Assembly: GCA_016748015.1 (NCBI GenBank) | Contig: JAAOMT010000242.1 | Location: 1 to 11,160 of the forward strand | Direction of reading: 5' to 3' | Length of the DNA stretch: 11,160 bases | Source: Geosiphon pyriformis uo1 | Taxonomy: Eukaryota > Fungi > Glomeromycota | In this document: positions 1,018-11,160 of the stretch, piece by piece | How the letters are laid out: each line of letters begins with the position of its first letter | How positions within the stretch are numbered: position 1 is the stretch's first letter | Program-made: the position numbers and the translations under genes | The notes under the pieces: model-generated | Told to the model about the DNA's origin: nothing | Seen by the model: the letters and a program-made list of their open reading frames with translations, nothing else | Databases searched by the model: none

Positions 1018-1515
1018 TCACATTTCTTTTCTTAAAGAAAGGTAAATTTGAACTCTGTTCCCAGTTGATTTGGTCGAACAATGTCCTATTAACAAACTTG
1101 TTTCTAGAGAATCCCATTGGACCATTATTCTTGTTTGTAGATCTGTTAATTCCTTTTTCCAATATGGAAAAAAAGTAATCTTGTTAGCCAAAGTTTGATC
1201 TAGAGTAACTTTATCAATACTTGTAGCAACAGCCTCCAAAACACTACTAGCCTCTAAAGCACCACCAGTCTCCAAAGCACCAAGAACAATAGTACTATAC
1301 CATATGTCAACTATTATTAAAACTCTCATAATATCCGCAAACAAGCCAGATATAATAGTTCTATTATTGTCTTCTAATGACAGTAGTAGCTTATAAAGAA
1401 GAAGAGTAATTGAATGTTGTAATATTTCAGAAATTTTGTTTAGTGTTCTATAATTGTTTCCAGAAACTTCTCTAATTTTTTTTACTACTATAAAAAGAAT
1501 GATTTCTGTTGACAA
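1018..1515 (-). CDS. Possible hypothetical ORF or gene fragment (165 aa, non-ATG start)
   Basis: Longest ORF in the track and unusual for this AT content. It contains an in-frame 6-aa repeat (LGALET-GGALEA-SSVLEA). No recognisable domain. Confidence 0.25.
   Translation of the reverse strand: MSTEIILFIVVKKIREVSGNNYRTLNKISEILQHSITLLLYKLLLSLEDNNRTIISGLFADIMRVLIIVDIWYSTIVLGALETGGALEASSVLEAVATSIDKVTLDQTLANKITFFPYWKKELTDLQTRIMVQWDSLETSLLIGHCSTKSTGNRVQIYLSLRKEM
1231..1284. repeat. Three imperfect 18-bp tandem repeats
   Basis: agcctccaaaacactact / agcctctaaagcaccacc / agtctccaaagcaccaag. Confidence 0.8.
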
Positions 1516-1787: not shown

Positions 1788-2071
1788 TGTAACTGGTAAA
1801 AAACCCAGGAATAAGAATAGAACACTCAAAGATTAAGGATAGCTTACCAGAAAAATTACCAGCTATTATGCTAAGAAAAAAATTTGATGGAATTGTGATT
1901 CCAGAAAGTGATAAATAAAACTACACTTGAATCTCTGTCTATTATACAAAAAACTCAATCAAAACTTTTAGACAACCAAAACCTTTAGATATTATCAACC
2001 TAATTCAGTTATCAAGTACCAAGTTATGAGTTTGTTATTTGATTTAAGACTCCAAATAATTACCTGTAACA
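1788..2071 (+). repeat. Candidate 5' LTR (about 284 bp)
   Basis: Ends TTACCTGTAACA at 2071, immediately before the PBS. TGTAACTGGTAA at 1788 matches the reverse complement of that end at 10/12 positions, giving TG...CA termini. A TATA/polyA-like GATAAATAAAA lies at about 1910-1920. The right end is well supported; the left end is not, because no second LTR is available and there is an alternative start at 1009. Confidence 0.45.
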
Positions 2072-2073
2072 TT

Positions 2074-2090
2074 TGGTGCTTCTTGTGAGA
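2074..2090 (+). promoter_or_regulatory. Primer-binding site, probably complementary to elongator tRNA-Met
   Basis: TGGTGCTTCTTGTGAGA starts 2 nt after the LTR-terminal CA. It resembles the reverse complement of eukaryotic elongator tRNA-Met 3' ends (TGGTGC-N5-GTGAGG pattern, recalled from memory). Confidence 0.65.
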
Positions 2091-2135
2091 TATAATTCAA
2101 CAGAAAACCAGCATCAATAACAATCATCTGAAACA

Positions 2136-4279
2136 GTGACAGAATCAGAAGAAATAAGAACAAACCACTTGAAATTTGCAAAATCTTTATTCTAGCATTA
2201 CAAAAGTCATCTCAGATTGACAAATAATAATTGGTCAGCAAAATTAGCTTTTAATTGCTATGTCAATGAAAAGATTATATATTATTTGGGAGGCCAAGGA
2301 GATCCAAAATTTGCCTTTAACAACTTTTTCAGTAAATTACTTCAAAGCATCATACTATCACAAAATTATCTATTTACACCACTAATTACAGAAATAAACA
2401 GAGAAATTAAAAAGTACACTAAACAAAAATTTTTTATTACTTTTGTTAACAAAGACAAAAGAAGATTACAAACACCAGCAGAAATTCCAAAACAAATACA
2501 ATTTGCTACATAGAAGAAACAGAGAGTGGATTCACTTGCTAATTTATTATATCATTACATACTCAGAAGTATTATCAATATAACATCAATAGACAAGTTC
2601 ACCACAAATGTGACAACACCACTAAACAGAATTCCATTCCAAAGTAAACAGAAAAAGCAAAGTTATTAGAAACCTATAGTGACTATTTTAAAAGATTTAA
2701 ATTACAATCTCCAATGCCATTAGAAGTTTGATTACCACTACCACAACCAGATTTTGGAGCTGCTAGTTCTTGAGAATTAACTGACTTTGAAGAAAAGGAA
2801 AATAACAATTAGGAAATTAATTATTTAAACCCAATTCCAGAAAATCTGGAAATTTAAACTTTAATTGTTCCAATTCAGCAAAATCAGAACAATCCAAATC
2901 CCACCATTATTAATCAATCAAACTTATCTCCAGAAATTATAATTAATCCACCATTAATTGTCCTGATTATTAAACAACAACACCAGCTACAACCATCATC
3001 TCAACAACAACTTCAACAGCAACCACCACCACAATTACAACAACAATTCATAATAGTACTAATAATCTATGCACTAATTGCCAAATTAAAAAAATTTACT
3101 AGCAAAGAGGATAATATTCAAACTTGGCTAAATGATGTTACCAAAGCAATAACAGTTAATAATTAGGATAACACCAGAGTTTTTCAAACAATTCCATATT
3201 TCTTGTAAGATACAGTTGACTTGTAGTACCAAAGCTTGGCACAGAAACTCCAAAATTTCAATAATTTCAAAGTAGAATTTTTGAAATATTTTAGTAATAA
3301 CAACAGCATCAATTGATTGGCAAATATCTTTACTACTATTAAACAAGAAAATACTGAAATCATCACTACTTATCTAAAATGCTTCCAACAAAATCTACAC
3401 CAAATTCAAGTCATTGATGCCAGTTATTTTACAGTAGCCCAAATTCTGAATCAATTTATTTACAGATTATGCAGCAGCATCCTACAACATGTACGTCTAT
3501 TACATTTAGCCATACTTTAAGCTGCAGTTACACATGCCAAAAACTTTGAATTAGCTGAACTCAAAGCCAATTATGCTCAAACTGTAAATTTAGTAATAAA
3601 CAGATTATCTGAATTGGATTCCAAATTGAAATAATTTATTAATTCAATTAACCAGAAATTGGAAGAATACTTAGTTAACAATTAGATTATTTATTAATTT
3701 CTACAATGATGTAATAATCAAGAAAACTCGAATTGTTTTCAAAACCAATCATATTTTTTATCATCAACCAATTAACTATAACAGCCAAAAATACTTACCT
3801 GCCATAATTGTAGTAAACTGCCATTATAATGGGAACTCATGATCAGAAAATCAATATTGAAACTTTGATTACTGATTTCAAACTCCATATTACTTACCAA
3901 TTAAGATCAATATTAACTCTATTACCCACAAATAACACAACAACCAATATACATACCTCCAATCTATTAAACACTAGCCTCAGTTATTTATCAACCACAG
4001 TCACCAGTAATGTATCAACAACTACTTATTTTAATACCACTATTAAACTCAGCTCAAATATCATCCAAAAATGCCAGACTAAGAATTACTTACATCCAAT
4101 AAAACTAGAAATTGGCAATAGTAATGTATTAACTGATTCCCAGTTTATCAAGTCAACCATCAGGATCTTGCTAACAGAGTTCAGGAATTGGGTATGTTCA
4201 AAACCCAAATTCCCAGAACTATTTAAGTCTTTTAATGACCCCAGAAAATGCCTCATTCAACAATTAAAAAACCAACTGA
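2136..4279 (+). pseudogene. gag: Gag region (N-terminal extension, Q/P tract, retrotransposon capsid domain at about 3065-3560, broken CCHC knuckle at 3800-3824, Q/P/Y-rich spacer)
   Basis: IAKLKKFTSKEDNIQTWLNDVTKAITVNN*...DL*YQSL...FNNFKVEFLKYF...IKQENTEIITTYLKCF matches the Retrotrans_gag/major homology region pattern. CHNC follows at 3800. It includes track ORFs 2217-2513 and 3317-3520. The start position is inferred. Confidence 0.85.
2975..3046 (+). repeat. CAA/CCA-rich low-complexity tract encoding poly-Gln/Pro in Gag
   Basis: caacaacaccagctacaaccatcatctcaacaacaacttcaacagcaaccaccaccacaattacaacaacaa = QQHQLQPSSQQQLQQQPPPQLQQQ. Confidence 0.8.
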
Positions 4280-4405
4280 ATGCTACTTACCAATAATATA
4301 CCTCTAGTAACTATTACTAATGACAAATTATTGGCTGCTATTTTTTTCTTTGAACTCAAAAAACCATCAGAAACTCTTTTATTCAGTGGAACCACTTTTA
4401 ATACA

Positions 4406-4770
4406 AAACCAATTATCACAATATATACCAATGCTAAAGTCAATGGTCAATTCATCAAATAATCTTAGACAGTAGTTCAGCAGACAGCATCATTACATGA
4501 CAACTTATAGACCAATTAAATCACCAAGTTGATTGTGCTGTCAGTGCCAGAATTATTACCACTAATAGAGCAATAAAAATGCCCATTGGAGAGATTGACA
4601 ACTTCTTTTTCAAAGTCATGGCATCATCATTTCAATCAAAGTATTGGTAATAAAAGCTACACAGTATCAAGCACTCATTGGTAATAACTGGCTGTCCAAA
4701 ACCAATGTAGTACTCAACTGGAACATCTAGAAGCTACAACTTAGCCAAAACAGCCAACACACATAAGTAC
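4406..4770 (+). pseudogene. Retropepsin-type aspartic protease domain (frameshifted)
   Basis: KPIITIYTNAKVNGQFIK, then a 1-nt frameshift, then ILDSSSADSII at 4462 (catalytic LDSG with G>A). The flap reads IITTNRAIKMPIGEI and the C-terminal motif ALIGNNWL starts at 4671. Confidence 0.88.
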
Positions 4771-5039
4771 TAGCAACTTGTAGTCATTTCAAGAGCACCA
4801 TGCCAGCACTGCTAACCAAATTCAAAAAAGAAACAACTAAACCTATTTAAGAAGCCTACCAAGTCTTATAGATTGATATTAACCACAATGAATTGCTGCC
4901 AATACTCTCTTGAAATGATAAGAAAAAAGAGAAAAAAGAAGACAAACTTAAAGAAACCACCACAAAAGAAATAACCAGTGGCTGGGAAAGGTTTTATTTA
5001 ACTGACATTAGACTAAAGCCACTGTATATACTACTTAGA

Positions 5040-5651
5040 TACAAAGACTATAAGAAAAAGCTGTCTTCTATGGGAGCTTGGGTTGTATCTAACAAAGATT
5101 ACTGAATACACATATACTATTACTGTAAGCTGTACTATTGTAAACACTATGGCTATCCAAAAAGACAAGGAAAGTAGAACAACAAATCATGTTTTGCTTA
5201 TGGGGAAACTTTTCTTGGCAAAGGAATATGGAATAACATTCCTGGTTGAAGAGAAACATGCAATATCTTGTGCCAATACATAATCCTTATAAATAATTAG
5301 ATCAGCAAAGAAACATCTTTTAATACTATATAGAACTGTGTTTTATTATACTTGGACAGTTATCTACATGATGAAAATAAGATCTGAAAAATAGCAAAAG
5401 CCAAAGTCAAAGATGTCTTACCTAGTAAAATTCTGGAAATAAAAAACAACCCACCAAAACCAATTGACATTATTCTTATTCTCAATTCAGATGTATTTCT
5501 TGATATCAAAACAGGCCCAGAAAAATTCCACAAACACTACCAAAACCTAGCATTAACCAAGAAAGAACAAAAACAATGGCTAAAACAATTAAATACACAA
5601 TTGTATAGATATTGCCTAATTCCCAATGATTTTGAATATTGTGATGATTGT
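5040..5651 (+). pseudogene. Cys-rich putative zinc-binding domain of unknown function inside Pol
   Basis: Paired Cys motifs, some decayed TGY>TAY: YKDY(5040)...CKLY(5124); CFAY(5190)...CNILC(5259); YRYC-x8-CDDC (5604-5651). The second copy restores several Cys (FLTC, CNALC, CKYC-x8-CDNC). Confidence 0.55.
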
Positions 5652-5735
5652 AATTTTGTTTACAATTCATTACCATGTATGATCTACACAATCTCTGAAG
5701 AAGACAAACCAATCAGCAGCTGCGAAATGGAATCA

Positions 5736-5870
5736 GAATTACTATTCAATTTCAATTCAAACTCTGATGACAATGACAAAAATAATGGTTCCAGTTCAGT
5801 CCAAAATAACAACACTAATAACAACAATTTAAACTCCAATTTAAATCTAGAACAATACATCACACTCCCT
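5736..5870 (+). repeat. Asn/Asp/Ser-rich low-complexity linker, present only in copy 1
   Basis: FNFNSNSDDNDKNNGSSSVQNNNTNNNNLNSNLNL within ORF 5601-5900. The 135 bp are absent from copy 2 at 7432/7433. Confidence 0.75.
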
Positions 5871-5924
5871 AATCTTTCTAAGGAGCAGAAACTAAAATAG
5901 TTCAATAATAATGATAAAAATATT

Positions 5925-6316
5925 ATGTCAAAACATGCACATAATACTAATGCAGAGTTTGATTTAAAATATCCAAGAAAAGATGTCATCAAATTAGAAC
6001 CACATTTGTGCATATGTATTGATCTAAAAGTAGCACTGGAAATTTTAGCAACAATAATGGTTCAACTAGTATTTAGGAGTAGTTTAATGAAAAAAAGAAT
6101 CAACATTAGAGAAAGAATAATTGATGCAGGATATATAGAAAATATCATTGCAATATTACAAAATGACTCAGAAAAAAAATATATTATTGAACCAAATAAA
6201 AAGATAGTACAGACAATATTTTTTTCTTTGGTTAAAATAGCTCAGTTAGTATTAGTAGAAAAAGAGAAAAATTAGAGATGACAGCAAAAGAAATAAGTGA
6301 ATTCAGATTCATAAGT
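5925..6316 (+). pseudogene. dut: Trimeric-type dUTPase domain, copy 1
   Basis: All five motifs are present in order with transition damage: I AEFDL (AGFDL), II RSSL, III RERIIDAGYIENI (GGIIDAGYxGNI), IV KIVQTIF (KIAQAIF), and V TAKEISEFRFIS (TARGxxGFGSTG) after a frameshift near 6265. Confidence 0.9.
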
Positions 6317-6872
6317 AGAATAAACATATTAGTTAACATGGCAAAAGAAGAAGTTATTGACAAGAGAGAAATTATTTCCACCTGTTAATCAATTTTTATT
6401 CTGCCATATGATCAGTACATATTAGTCATAGAAAAAAAAGTAAAGAATCAAGACCAAATTTTTGAAGTAGAAATCACAATTTGTAAATCAGAAAAGATTG
6501 GACTTACCAATTTTTACATACAAGCCAAAAGCCTAAAACACATAAAAATTCCCATTTACAACACAACTAGAAAAGTTATCAAAATACCAAAAAGAATCAT
6601 CATCAAATATATAAGCACAGAAGTTAAGAATTAACTACTAAGTATTATCCCAGATTTTCTACAACTTTGTGAATATATAGATATCACATTACAAACAATA
6701 TACAGACAAAAAAAATATTATTTGCTCCAATCAGAACAATTGGAACAAATGAACTTGGGAAACTTAGATCCACTCTAATGGATACAACTTAAAATATTAC
6801 TTAACAATTTTATTGATATTTTTGCCAGTAAAAATAAATTTGGCCAAACTGATATCATCCAGCATCAAATTA

Positions 6873-8432
6873 AGAACAATAAATCATTTCTTACTTGTGA
6901 GAAAACTTTACTTAACAAAAAAATATAGAATAACATTTTTGGTCAAGAAAAAATGTGTAATGCTTTATGCCAATATACAATTCTTATTAGTGACTAGATA
7001 AGCAGAAGAATGTTTTTTAATACTACAAAAAACCAAGCACTCTTATGCTTGAACAGTTATTTACATAATAAAGATAAGATTTGACAAATAGCAAGTATTA
7101 AAGTTAAAAGTGCTTTACTTAATGAGATATTCACAATTAAAAACAACCCACCAGAACTTATTAAAACCATTTTTATTTCAAACTCAGACAGCTTTGTTGA
7201 CATTTTGAGCAATTCAAAACAATTCTATAAATACTACCAAGATTTAATACTTACTTAAGAAGAACAAAAGCAGTATTTAAAGCAATTAAATACTAGATTC
7301 TGTAAATATTGTCTAATTTTCAATAACTTTAAATATTGTGATAATTGTGATCTTATTTACAATCTACTATTATGTATAATTTATTCAATTTTCAAAAAAA
7401 AAAAATTAATTAGCAATTGTACTTAGAAATCAAATTTATCAATAAAATAGGAACTTAAATAATTCAGTAATAATAATAAAAATATTATGCCAGAATGCAT
7501 ACATAATATAAATACAAAATTTGATTTCAGATATTCAAAAAAAACTGCCATTAGATTAGAATCTCATTCATATACCAGCATATATTTAAAAATAGCACTA
7601 GAAATTTTGGCAATAACAATAATTTAATTAGTGTTTAGATCTAGTTTAGTAAAAAAAAAATTAATATTAAAGAAGAAATAATTAATGCAGAATATGTAAA
7701 AAATATTATTGTAATATTACAAAATAAATTAGAGAAGACATATATTATCAAACCAAATAAAAAAATAACACAGGCAATATTTTTACCTCTGGTAAAAATA
7801 GCTCAATTAGTGTTAATAAAAACAAAAAAAAAGTTAAAAATAACAACAAGAGAAGAAAAATGATTTGAATTAACAAATAAAATAGAAGTATTAATTAATA
7901 TGACAGAAAAAAAACCATTAATTAGAGAGAAATAATTTCTATCAATTAATCAATTTCTATTCTACTATATAACCAATATATATTATCATAAAGAGAAAAG
8001 TAAAAGATTAACTCCAAAATTTAAATTAGAACTTATCATTTATAAATTAAAAAAGATTATTATTATCAATTTTTATATACTAACCAAAAACTATAAACAC
8101 ATTAAAATCTCAATACACAACACAATTGAAAACTTAATTAAAATATTAAATGAAATTATCATTAGATACTTAAGCATTGAAGTTGAAAACCAACTACCAA
8201 CCACCATTCCAAACTTTCTACAACTGTGTAAATATGTAAATATTATATCACAAACAATATATAGATAAAAAAAATATTATTTGCTATAACCAAAACAGTT
8301 AGAGCAAATAAACTTGAGAAACTTAGACTTATTTTAATATATACAGCTCAAAATGCTACTCAACAATTTCATTAATATTTTTGCCAGAAAAAACAAATTT
8401 GGAAGAACTAATATTATTTAGTACTAGATTAA
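6873..8432 (+). repeat. Internal tandem duplication, copy 2 (about 1.56 kb), continuing into RT
   Basis: Colinear with 5176-6872 apart from the 135-bp linker. It ends FARKNKFGRTNII*Y*IK and runs on into TGDTISIK at the RT N-terminus. Confidence 0.92.
7487..7878 (+). pseudogene. dut: dUTPase domain, copy 2 (more decayed)
   Basis: MPECIHNINTKFDFRYSKK...FRSSLVKK...EEIINAEYVKNIIVILQN...KITQAIFLPLVKIAQLV...TTREEK*FELTN, homologous to copy 1 throughout. Confidence 0.85.
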
Positions 8433-8433
8433 A

Positions 8434-9290
8434 ACTGGAGATACAATATCAATTAAATAATAAACATACCAAATACTACCAACCAGCCATAAAATTATCT
8501 GACAAGAAATTAACTAAATATTGAACAATAAGTTAATTTAATTATCAATAGGTTTATAATTATCATCAGTAGTATTTGTCCAAAAAAAAATGAAAGATCT
8601 GCTTTTGTGTAGATTACTGAAAACTTAATAGTATTATTCATAGAAATAGCTATTCAATGCTTCTGGAGGAAAAAAATAGTTCTTAATATTGGACTTAGAT
8701 AGTAATTACTGGCAAATAGCCATAAATTCAACCAATAAAAAAAACAGTATTTACCACTAGAGAAATAAATTTTGAATTTAACATTATGTCTTTTGGCTTA
8801 ACTAATACTTCCACTACTTTTCAATGGTTAATGGAAATTATCTATACAAGATTACTATGGAAATTAATAATAGTTTACTTGGATAACACAAACATATTCT
8901 TTAAAATATTTGATAATTATTTTTATCATCTTTATTATGTATTTAAAAAGTTAAAAAGAATAGGATTAAAGTTGAATACTAATAAGTATTTTTTTGAAAA
9001 AACTGAGCTTAAGTTTTTGGAACATATTATGAGCAAAAACAGCATTAAAACAAATCCAGATAAAATCAAAATAGTTAAAAACTTTCCAGTATCAATAAAC
9101 TTAATAAAGCTAAAAACATTCTTAAAATTTGCTAAATACTACTGTCACTTTATCCAAAATTTTTCCAAACTGGCTCAACCATTTTACTAGCTCTAAGCAA
9201 AGAACATTAAATATAAATAGACTAAAAATCAACAAAAAGTTTTTGACATACTGCAAAGAAAGCTTATTCAAGCTTTAGTATTGATTTATT
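8434..9290 (+). pseudogene. pol: Reverse transcriptase (Ty3/Gypsy type), inactivated
   Basis: SSVVFVQKK, FCVDY*KLN (8603), LDLDSNYWQI (8689), MSFGLTNTSTTFQWLM (8786), YLDN at 8876-8887 (YLDD with G>A), GLKLNTNKYFF...KFLEH, and thumb LKTFLKFAKYYCHFIQNFSKLAQPFY. Confidence 0.95.
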
Positions 9291-9299
9291 CAAATTACA

Positions 9300-9666
9300 G
9301 CAAACTATTTATTATTATTATTAATGTATTAAACCAAATATTAAGAGTTATATGGTCACAAAAAAGAATAGATAAATGAAAACATCTAGTAGCATATGTC
9401 AGCTGAAGTTTAATTTTAGCTAAAAAAAATTATAAAACTCCAGCATCAAAACATTTAACTATCTATTGAATTATTATAAAATAAAAAAAATACTTGAATT
9501 AAAAGTTTGATTTATATATTATTACAAAAAATTGACATCAATCTAAAAGCAAAAATTTAGAAACAATTATTATATAAGATAGAAAATAGAACTATTACTA
9601 TTTAAATATACAGTACATTATAAAAATGGAAAAAAAAATGGAAATATTGACAAATTATTACAAATA
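9300..9666 (+). pseudogene. pol: RNase H domain, inactivated
   Basis: KLFIIIINVLNQILRVIWSQ (about PFIxxTDASxxGLGAILSQ), HLVAYVS*SLILAKKNY (about HPVAYASRSLxxAEKNY), and YKNGKKNGNIDKLLQ (about YRxGKxNxNADxLSR). Confidence 0.88.
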
Positions 9667-9799
9667 AGACAAATCTAAAACCATTTTAACCCAAAAATAT
9701 AATAAAAGATGAATATACAAAAATATCACAACTTCAATATTATATTAATATTTAATAATTCAAGAAGAAATTATCTTAAAAAAAACAAAATTATATAAA

Positions 9800-10915
9800 A
9801 CAACAATCAAAATATTTTATTATTTAACAAAATATATTATATTAAAAAAACAGAAAAAATTCAGATTAACCACTCAAAATAATTACAGAACCAGAAAAAA
9901 AAACAATATTATTTAATATACACTCAAATTCAACTGCCAGACATTTTTATAAAAAAACAATCATAGAAAGAACCAGAAAAAGATACTATTAGTTATTAAT
10001 ATATTTAAAGTTGTAATGCTTATTAAAGAAAATAAAAAATAAAACCCAGTAAATTACTAAAACCAATTAAAGTAAAACAACCATTCAATTAAATTGAAAT
10101 TAACTTAGTCAGATCATTAACAATAATCAGTAAAAACAACCAATATATAATAATAGCTATAAACTATCTCACAAAATAGCCAGAAATTAAAGCAATTCAA
10201 AGAACAGATATAGAATTTATTGTCAAATTTGTATATCAAGATTTAATTTGTCAACACAAATATTCAAAAAATTGTTATTAAATCAAAAAATTCACTTTGT
10301 AAACAAAACATTAACAGAATTAAATTAGAGATTTGAAATTAAAAAACTATTATCATTATCATATTATCTACAAACCAATAACTTAGTCAAAAAGTTTAAC
10401 AAAATATTATTTGAAGTAATAGCCAAGATCAGTCAAAAAAACCAAGACAAATAAAATTTGTTTATAAGACAATAAAGCAAGATACTACATAAACAACATC
10501 ATTTAAACTAGTCTATGATAAAATAGCAATATTATTAGTTGAGATAAAAATTAATATATATTTAACTGAACCAATAACAAAAGCCAACTTTTAAGAAACA
10601 TTGTTAAAAAAAACATATGACTTAATGAAAACTCTAAAAAACAAAAAGCAAAAAACAGCTGATAACATATAAAAATTACAAAAAAAACAACATAATAACT
10701 GGTTACCAAATAAACCAGCTGAATTCAAAATTGAAGACAAAGTATTTTTATATTGTACCAAAATAAAAAAACAATAAAATAGAAAATTTGATCTTAAATA
10801 ATATAGTTTATTTTATATTGAAAATTTTTTGAAAAATAAAGCATATAAGTTAAAATGAAACAACAAAATCTTAGCCAAAGCAGTACATGATAATCAACTA
10901 AAACCATATTACAAT
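9800..10915 (+). pseudogene. pol: Integrase (HHCC zinc finger, DDE core, GPF/Y C-terminal module), inactivated
   Basis: HSNSTARHF (His at 9921 and 9942) and SCNAY (10012). The core reads IEINLVRSL (10093), LLLNQKIHF (10272) and QTNNLVKKFN (10389), with exact D-35-E spacing between 10281 and 10389. The C-terminal module reads FKIEDKVFLY...KFDLK*YSLFYI...AYKL...VHDNQLKPY. Confidence 0.92.
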
Positions 10916-11160
10916 ATAGTATCATTATCTACCAGTAATATTTTACAATTGGAAGTACAACAAATACTAGTCAAACCAGATAAAATTTCACAAAATTTGA
11001 AACCAATCATAATCATTAAAACAAACATGTTAAATTAATTAATCAAAACAGTATATAAAAAATAAATGCACATAATAAAAGCAATAGTAAAAATAAAAAT
11101 TACTAACAACATTCATTTACTTGTACAATAATTTTTACAATTTATCTAACATTAAAAATC

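What the first reader, a model, noticed from the sequence alone, without database searches (positions are those of the whole stretch)
4406..9290. Gypsy retrotransposon with an expanded Pol: protease - Cys-rich domain - dUTPase - linker - RT
Seen: a five-motif dUTPase lies within the Pol frame between protease and RT, and the PR-to-RT spacer is about 2 kb even counting one repeat copy. Known: dUTPases occur in betaretroviruses, non-primate lentiviruses and ERV-L but are rare in LTR retrotransposons. I recall a PR-dUTPase-RT arrangement in the truffle element Tmt1, so the dUTPase alone is not unprecedented. Inference: dUTPase together with a multi-zinc-finger domain, an extended Gag and a post-integrase tail may define a poorly described large Metaviridae lineage that limits uracil incorporation into its own cDNA.
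Basis: partly seen in the sequence, partly recalled or inferred. Interest (0 to 1): 0.8.

Follow-up and report, generated by a model that had tools for sequence, protein, structure and literature searches.

The report
Fungal retrotransposon with zinc-linked dUTPase
This is a dead, two-part copy of a fungal gypsy jumping gene whose family carries an undescribed cysteine-rich module, a dUTPase and what is likely the worn-out remnant of an older dUTPase between its protease and reverse transcriptase, an arrangement that would help keep uracil out of its DNA copies; the dUTPase position itself is already known.

Summary
Real, but a pseudogene, and only partly new. The window is a transition-decayed Ty3/gypsy element (Gag-PR-RT-RH-IN) of a family abundant in Geosiphon pyriformis (29 of 29 hits). 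PR - Cys spacer - dUTPase - linker - RT is the family layout, not a one-off: 17 of 17 gene models with PR before dUTPase carry spacer modules, and an unnamed 1064-aa protein, P0154, holds the layout unbroken with all three CxxC clusters and five dUTPase motifs. In the window the dUTPase is damaged and frameshifted. The 1.6-kb internal repeat is a join of two separately evolved family members (third-position transversion excess; junction bridged by a contig). New here: the post-dUTPase linker is the ordinary gypsy PR-RT spacer domain, and a profile of that domain aligns to the dUTPase core (88%, 0 of 200 shuffles), so the family likely pairs an active with a relic dUTPase. PR-dUTPase-RT is published for fungal, rotifer and planarian elements. 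This scan noted a similar Cys spacer three times before on other DNA. New variant; interest 0.42.

The parts
2065..2085 (+). likely end of the 5' LTR (..TGTAACA) followed by a TGG-starting primer-binding-site-like motif
   Evidence: sequence; no 3' LTR in the window to confirm; tRNA match not tested
2091..2657 (+). N-terminal Gag extension, family-conserved, no Pfam hit (3 stops)
   Evidence: tblastn to Geosiphon models; 10 of 29 models; no family
3059..3820 (+). Gag capsid region, decayed
   Evidence: PF03732 E 1.8e-5; 28 of 29 models
4280..4790 (+). aspartic protease, two frameshifts, triad read as DSS at 4468
   Evidence: tblastn; Asp_protease families in relatives
5040..5651 (+). Cys-rich spacer, copy 1: CxxC...CxxC cluster (5040-5147), CxxC...Cx3C cluster (5190-5273), helical part, CxxC-x8-CxxC cluster (5604-5651); many Cys decayed to Tyr here
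   Evidence: family majority residues; all clusters intact in P0154; no Pfam/NCBIfam/PDB match
5736..5849 (+). Asp/Asn/Ser low-complexity tract, absent from copy 2 (135-nt gap) and from P0154
5901..6320 (+). dUTPase, copy 1 (pseudogene; frameshift at about 6257-6263 before motif 5)
   Evidence: PF00692; motif status against the family
6383..6625 (+). beta-rich linker domain, homologous to the common gypsy PR-RT spacer; likely relic dUTPase fold without catalytic motifs
   Evidence: iterated HMM; hhalign with controls
6626..6872 (+). pre-RT helix and first RT residues of element A, cut at the junction
6872..6873 (.). in-frame junction between element A (5') and element B (3'), with a few bases of microhomology
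   Evidence: contexts; bridged by a 92-nt contig with 0 differences
6873..8431 (+). copy 2 (element B): second and third Cys clusters, dUTPase (7463-~7880), linker; more decayed (GC 0.21 vs 0.28)
8400..9600 (+). reverse transcriptase (YxDD read as YLDN at 8876) and RNase H, decayed
   Evidence: PF00078, PF17919, PF17917; tblastn
9717..10906 (+). integrase with GPY/F region, decayed and frameshifted; about 40-codon tail follows
   Evidence: local HMM, i-E 3e-9 to 3e-5, no minus-strand hits under 0.05; Pfam gave no hit

Best explanation
The window holds a dead Ty3/gypsy retrotransposon, likely joined from two diverged members of a Geosiphon-type fungal family, whose Pol reads protease - three predicted zinc clusters - dUTPase - likely relic dUTPase-fold domain - RT - RNase H - integrase; in the active element the protease would release a zinc-cluster-dUTPase product that likely binds the packaged nucleic acid and destroys dUTP during reverse transcription. 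Shown: domain order, family-wide presence, an unbroken natural copy of the layout (P0154), past purifying selection on the spacer, present decay. Inferred: zinc binding, the cleavage pattern, nucleic-acid tethering (by analogy with the betaretroviral nucleocapsid-dUTPase fusion), enzyme activity, the relic fold (transitive profile match) and the deletion or crossover that made the join.
For: 29 of 29 hits are G. pyriformis gene models; 23 of 29 carry PF00692; 17 of 17 with PR before dUTPase have spacer modules between. P0154: PR, spacer (HMM 194 bits), dUTPase (190 bits), linker, RT in one 1064-aa frame; 30% identical to the window over 553 columns; protease 68% identical to a Geosiphon model. 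Five motifs are the majority residues of the family. Transversions between the copies by codon position: 8/5/20 in the spacer (p 0.0012), 21/14/47 overall (p 7e-6). Junction bridged (34 and 58 bases, 0 differences); another contig carries copy-2 sequence with normal upstream spacer sequence, and another carries copy-1-type sequence on into RT. Linker vs common gypsy spacer 96%; that spacer vs dUTPases 78-90%, also without family rows; five other Pol domains at most 0.2%. Nucleocapsid-dUTPase precedent: PMC4531489 section 9.
Against: Elements L001, L003, L004 have a 51%-identical dUTPase directly behind the protease with no spacer, so the enzyme does not need the module. No structure supports the zinc clusters or the relic fold: models had pLDDT 53 and 40 and no PDB fold match. 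The family's own linker profile matches dUTPase only weakly (1-2%); the relic reading is transitive. The protein search was seeded with a query containing the dUTPase, so its counts are biased towards dUTPase bearers; gene models contain spurious introns, and none of the 29 has an RT Pfam hit. The RT tree does not group the window with P0154 (24% of bootstrap trees), though that grouping is not rejected. The bridging run may be the assembly's own data.
Confidence: 0.6

Rival explanations
1. The Cys-rich module works on its own (for example binding chromatin, RNA or a host silencing factor) and only happens to lie next to the dUTPase.
For: Related dUTPases occur without it (L001, L003, L004). 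The module has acidic stretches rather than the basic make-up of nucleocapsids (sequences). No CCHC knuckle hit in the spacer.
Against: In all 17 informative gene models and in P0154 it lies between protease and dUTPase; the spacer HMM hit only P0154 among the non-Geosiphon proteins held, so no stand-alone form was seen in this small set.
Confidence: 0.3
2. The internal repeat was a working tandem duplication, giving an active element with two dUTPase cassettes.
For: The junction is in frame (frame 2; one in three by chance), and both copies show past selection.
Against: No gene model shows two dUTPase stretches (one stretch in each of the 23); copy 1 ends inside RT and copy 2 starts inside the second Cys cluster; contigs show both halves in their normal context elsewhere; the halves differ in decay (GC 0.28-0.33 vs 0.20-0.22).
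Confidence: 0.07
3. The linker behind the dUTPase is an unrelated beta domain and its likeness to dUTPase is convergent.
For: Shallow family profile: 23 of 100 shuffles scored as high; identity in the deep match is 13%; the AlphaFold model failed.
Against: The deep profile gives 88% over 77 columns, 0 of 200 shuffles, reversed control 0.1%, other Pol domains at most 0.2%, and holds against three unrelated dUTPases.
Confidence: 0.25
4. The repeat is an assembly error.
For: Repeat-rich genome (64% repeats in G. pyriformis, PMC9453076 table); only one run holds the stretch.
Against: A short-read contig crosses the junction without a difference; the copies are 27% diverged, too far apart for allelic collapse.
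Confidence: 0.05

Closest known systems
Fungal dUTPase-bearing Ty3/gypsy elements: PosPlaTy3-5 (Postia placenta), Phanerochaete chrysosporium elements, Tmt1 (Tuber melanosporum) (PMC2864245, passages; PMC5408684)
   Same: dUTPase between protease and RT in a fungal gypsy Pol
   Different: The passages read mention no Cys-rich spacer or second dUTPase-like domain.
Juno, Vesta and TelKA LTR retrotransposons of bdelloid rotifers (PMC5408684, passages)
   Same: PR-dUTPase-RT; Juno adds a zinc knuckle inside Pol
   Different: Juno has one knuckle after the dUTPase; here three Cys clusters in about 280-350 residues precede it. The metagenome elements L002, L004, L005, L006 (CPH..CxxC after the dUTPase) look more like Juno in layout.
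Burro/GYPSM1 giant gypsy of planarians (PMC6431247, passages)
   Same: expanded polyprotein with a 'dUTPase-like' motif between PR and RT
   Different: Animal host, 25 kb, other accessory domains; whether its motif is active or relic was not stated in the passage.
Betaretroviral nucleocapsid-dUTPase fusion of MMTV and MPMV (PMC4531489, section 9)
   Same: zinc-binding module fused N-terminally to a five-motif dUTPase; proposed to bring the enzyme to the site of reverse transcription
   Different: There the module is the Gag nucleocapsid and the fusion lies before the protease; here it is a non-CCHC, partly acidic module after the protease. A functional analogy only.

Membership tests
Ty3/gypsy (Metaviridae) | Pol order PR-RT-RH-IN | tested here: met
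Ty3/gypsy (Metaviridae) | gypsy-type Gag capsid upstream | tested here: met
   PF03732 in the window; PF19259 Ty3_capsid in relatives
Ty3/gypsy (Metaviridae) | paired LTRs, PBS, PPT, target-site duplication | tested here: inconclusive
   LTR-end and PBS-like motif at 2065-2085; no purine tract of 12 or more after 10800 and no 3' LTR inside the window; no genome held
Ty3/gypsy (Metaviridae) | intact catalytic motifs (autonomous element) | tested here: not met
   DSS, YLDN, 65 stops: this copy is dead; this lowers activity, not descent
Trimeric dUTPase (PF00692) | five conserved motifs | tested here: met
   met in family majority residues, P0154 and L001 (TIGR00576 above cut-off); not met in the window's own copies
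Trimeric dUTPase (PF00692) | dUTP hydrolysis, homotrimer | not testable with these tools
   needs an assay
Chromovirus clade | chromodomain after integrase; RT clade | tested here: inconclusive
   no Pfam hit in 10442-11050, but the region is decayed; grouping with a chromodomain-bearing Akanthomyces Pol is 15 log units worse, not rejected (p 0.36)
Tmt1 / PosPlaTy3-5 families | dUTPase between PR and RT | tested here: met
Tmt1 / PosPlaTy3-5 families | RT/IN kinship and same spacer content | not testable with these tools
   no GyDB, REXdb or Repbase sequences on hand
Juno (rotifer) | extra zinc knuckle after the dUTPase | tested here: not met
   Cys clusters lie before the dUTPase; the domain after it is the beta spacer
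Betaretroviral NC-dUTPase | CCHC nucleocapsid fused to dUTPase at the gag-pro junction | tested here: not met
   no zf-CCHC hit in the spacer; position after the protease

The most novel reading that the evidence does not exclude
The ordinary beta-rich spacer between protease and RT of many gypsy elements is a dead dUTPase fold; this fungal family regained an active dUTPase in front of it as a swappable module (the same dUTPase sits in an otherwise distant gypsy lineage) and fused it to a new three-cluster zinc domain, an independent invention of the retroviral nucleocapsid-dUTPase tether.
Probability: 0.35. Interest if true: 0.65.

Novelty: new variant of a known kind. Interest (0 to 1): 0.42.

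Why it matters
The role and origin of dUTPases in retrotransposons is stated as unclear (PMC2864245). P0154 (with spacer) and L001/L004 (without) are natural, nearly intact pairs with 51% identical enzymes, so the question of what the module adds can be tested without rebuilding anything. If the common gypsy spacer (68 of 150 RT relatives here) is a relic dUTPase, then dUTPase capture is old in Metaviridae and 'rare' only because most copies lost their motifs. Practical point: many G. pyriformis 'hypothetical proteins' with a dUTPase domain are fragments of this one element, in a genome that is 41% LTR sequence (PMC11952901).

Tried and rejected
No whole genome is held, so copies could not be counted at DNA level. 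No RNA holder was listed; X2 and X3 hold next to none of the stretch. Word-based searches with the decayed RT found no Geosiphon RT (7 and 2 distant hits). Viral contigs: 0 relatives among 23 and 34 pattern matches. Prokaryote genomes: 1 dUTPase at 32% among 51 matches, so no close bacterial donor was seen; my idea of capture from a fungal endobacterium has no support, but the scan was narrow. Linker vs dUTPase with the shallow family profile: negative; positive only with the deep profile. AlphaFold models of linker and spacer, built on decayed window sequences, were low-confidence; Foldseek on the spacer model gave 0 matches at E 0.001; the linker model was not searched. Homotrimer prediction for the P0154 linker: no answer (score 0.00, alignment not used). 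The protein Atlas gave no result. RT trees: a 12-row tree put the window next to L004 (86/82); 39-row trees did not; none of three groupings was rejected; Geosiphon models with under 85 aligned RT residues were left out of those trees. I dropped the reading that L001-L006 are a sister lineage: their protease is only 22-25% identical. Classic CpA-type RIP is not indicated: C changed at 0.56, 0.66, 0.66 before A, C, T, with no CpG left. Paper searches for Geosiphon + dUTPase and Metaviridae + dUTPase + inactivated gave 0; the Geosiphon genome paper is not held.
Full report
What is in the window. The sequence is AT-rich with almost no CpG (observed/expected 0.03). On the + strand it carries, in order, a likely LTR end with a primer-binding-site-like motif (2065-2085), Gag (PF03732), protease, a Cys-rich spacer, a dUTPase (PF00692 E 2.6e-8), a linker, then a second copy of spacer-dUTPase-linker, RT (PF00078), RNase H and integrase with a GPY/F region (local HMM; Pfam missed it). 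The order PR-RT-RH-IN is that of Ty3/gypsy. The copy is dead: 65 stops along the segments of the path, frameshifts, DSS for the protease triad and YLDN for the RT motif. Of the 12 stops in 4620-6272, 11 fall where the family majority is W, Q or R, as C-to-T decay predicts. The decay is not limited to CpA; CG methylation is reported in a related fungus (10.1101/2021.03.30.436303, passages), and methyl-C deamination as the cause is my inference.

Host and family. Read through with X at stops, 4620-6272 found 29 proteins among 7991 scored candidates, all Geosiphon pyriformis gene models, so the window is likely from that fungus or a close relative. 23 of 29 carry PF00692 and none carries RVT_1; the five without any dUTPase match end before reaching it. 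All 17 models with protease before dUTPase have at least one spacer module between them. These counts are biased by the query and the models have spurious introns, but they exclude a one-off insertion. G. pyriformis is 41.2% LTR sequence (PMC11952901, passages). I recall that the genome paper lists dUTPase among over-represented domains; that paper is not held, so this is memory only.

The dUTPase. Family majority residues give all five motifs (AGFDL, RSSLA, GIIDAGY, EKIAQ, RGIQGFGS; motif numbering recalled, residues). In window copy 1, motifs 1-3 are hit by G-to-A and C-to-T changes, the motif 3 aspartate survives, and motif 5 is frameshifted and lost. So 'five-motif' is true of the family, not of this copy.

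The Cys spacer. Three clusters are conserved: CxxC...CxxC, CxxC...Cx3C and CxxC-x8-CxxC, with a helical stretch between the second and third. No Pfam, NCBIfam or PDB sequence match covers it. Between the two window copies, transversions fall 8/5/20 on codon positions 1/2/3 in the spacer (p 0.0012), 3/3/8 in the dUTPase and 10/6/19 in the linker, while transitions are nearly even. The spacer was therefore kept by selection while the lineages were active. Zinc binding is inferred from spacing alone; the model was poor (pLDDT 53) and matched nothing.

An intact natural copy. A profile search of 1.84 billion representatives returned 150 top hits, 4 with a dUTPase. One, P0154 (1064 aa, unnamed ENA protein, cluster of one), reads protease - all three Cys clusters - five-motif dUTPase - linker - RT without a break and without the decay signature; it ends inside RT. 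Its protease is 68% and its dUTPase 56% identical to Geosiphon models. It lacks the Asp/Asn tract. This shows that the layout is a real coding arrangement, and it makes a rebuilt consensus unnecessary.

Relatives without the spacer. Six metagenome loci (of 190 pattern matches) hold mostly open PR-dUTPase-RT frames. Protease triad to dUTPase is 146 residues there, 421 in P0154 and 495 in the window. Their dUTPase is 51% identical to the family's but their protease only 22-25%, they lack the beta linker, and four have a small CPH..CxxC motif after the dUTPase. The simplest reading is that the dUTPase moved between gypsy lineages as a module; RT trees could neither confirm nor reject one clade, the window's RT being a long, composition-biased branch.

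The linker. Iterating an HMM of the family linker over the proteins held recruited 80 domains from non-Geosiphon proteins, present in 68 of the 150 RT relatives; the three with names, of 10 looked up, are pseudoscorpion retroelement proteins. It is thus the ordinary gypsy PR-RT spacer. A 36-row profile of it aligns to dUTPases over 77 columns (hhalign 88%, score 35; 200 column shuffles mean 9.8, maximum 17.6; reversed 9.2). [quoted passage not shown] The family profile alone is weak against dUTPase, so the relic reading is transitive and has no structural support here. The nearest print mention that I found is 'dUTPase-like' between PR and RT in Burro (PMC6431247, passages; searches).

The repeat. 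Copies 5176-6872 and 6873-8431 are 72.7% identical with 336 transitions and 90 transversions. Copy 1 stops a few codons into RT; copy 2 starts inside the second Cys cluster. Everything from 6873 on is more decayed (GC 0.20-0.22 against 0.28-0.33). A contig crosses the junction with no difference, another continues copy-2 sequence upstream into normal spacer sequence, and another continues copy-1-type sequence into RT. The window is best read as the 5' part of one element joined to the 3' part of another by a deletion or crossover at a short microhomology. The bridging run may be the assembly's own sample.

Mechanism. Shown: layout, conservation, selection, decay. Inferred: in the active element the protease cut Pol; the dUTPase trimerised and lowered dUTP in the particle, as lentiviral dUTPases limit mutation in cells with little host enzyme (PMC4531489, passages); the Cys module stayed fused and held the enzyme on the nucleic acid, as proposed for the betaretroviral nucleocapsid fusion (same paper, section 9). 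I put 0.6 on this account as a whole; the tether is its weakest step, since spacer-less elements exist.

Comparison and novelty. PR-dUTPase-RT is published for Postia, Phanerochaete and Tuber elements (PMC2864245, passages; also PMC2774666), rotifer Juno/Vesta/TelKA (PMC5408684, passages) and Burro; dUTPase domains are also enriched with retroelement domains in Entomophthora muscae (10.1101/2023.09.13.557621, one passage). The Tmt1 and Phanerochaete papers were seen only as reference entries. The supplements of PMC2864245 were not read and Repbase/GyDB could not be searched; either may already hold this layout. Nine paper searches found no description of the three-cluster spacer. Three earlier notes of this scan describe a similar spacer on other DNA; they are unchecked leads, and sequence look-ups did not link them to this family. 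Verdict: a new variant of a known kind; a specialist would find the active-plus-relic pairing and the spacer interesting, not startling. Interest 0.42.

Noticed in passing
L001:1270-1300 and L004:550-570: In the spacer-less elements gag and pol overlap in different frames, as for a -1 frameshift, whereas P0154 runs from a Gag-tail-like Gln/Pro/Tyr region into the protease in one frame; if gag-pol is one frame in this family, dUTPase would be made one-to-one with Gag.
   Followed up: no
window 8876-8895; L004, L005: The RT motif is followed by Thr-Asn (YxDDTN) in L004 and L005 and in decayed form in the window; only 1 of the 150 representatives has YxDD followed by Thr or Ser. A possible lineage marker.
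   Followed up: partly
window 2235-11064: Contigs at depth about 330-480 with about 4% transitions match both halves of the window, while exact contigs lie at about 150-190 and many others near 85-90: the locus may sit in a segment duplicated after decay.
   Followed up: no
window 1018-1515 (- strand): A 165-codon open frame upstream of the element, with an 18-nt tandem repeat at 1230-1282; no Pfam family and no match to the proteins held. Possibly part of another repeat.
   Followed up: partly
window 1972-2133: Several Geosiphon gene models begin with a short peptide that maps to the LTR-end region before Gag: a spliced leader or a gene-calling artefact.
   Followed up: no
window 2091-2657: The conserved Gag N-terminal extension has no family assignment and also occurs in diverged form (25-28% identity) in other Geosiphon gypsy models.
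   Followed up: partly
P0162, P0218 (one search hits): Two more unnamed gypsy Pols with a more distant dUTPase (32-40% identity for P0162) before RT; P0162 has a short CxH..CxxC motif between protease and dUTPase.
   Followed up: partly
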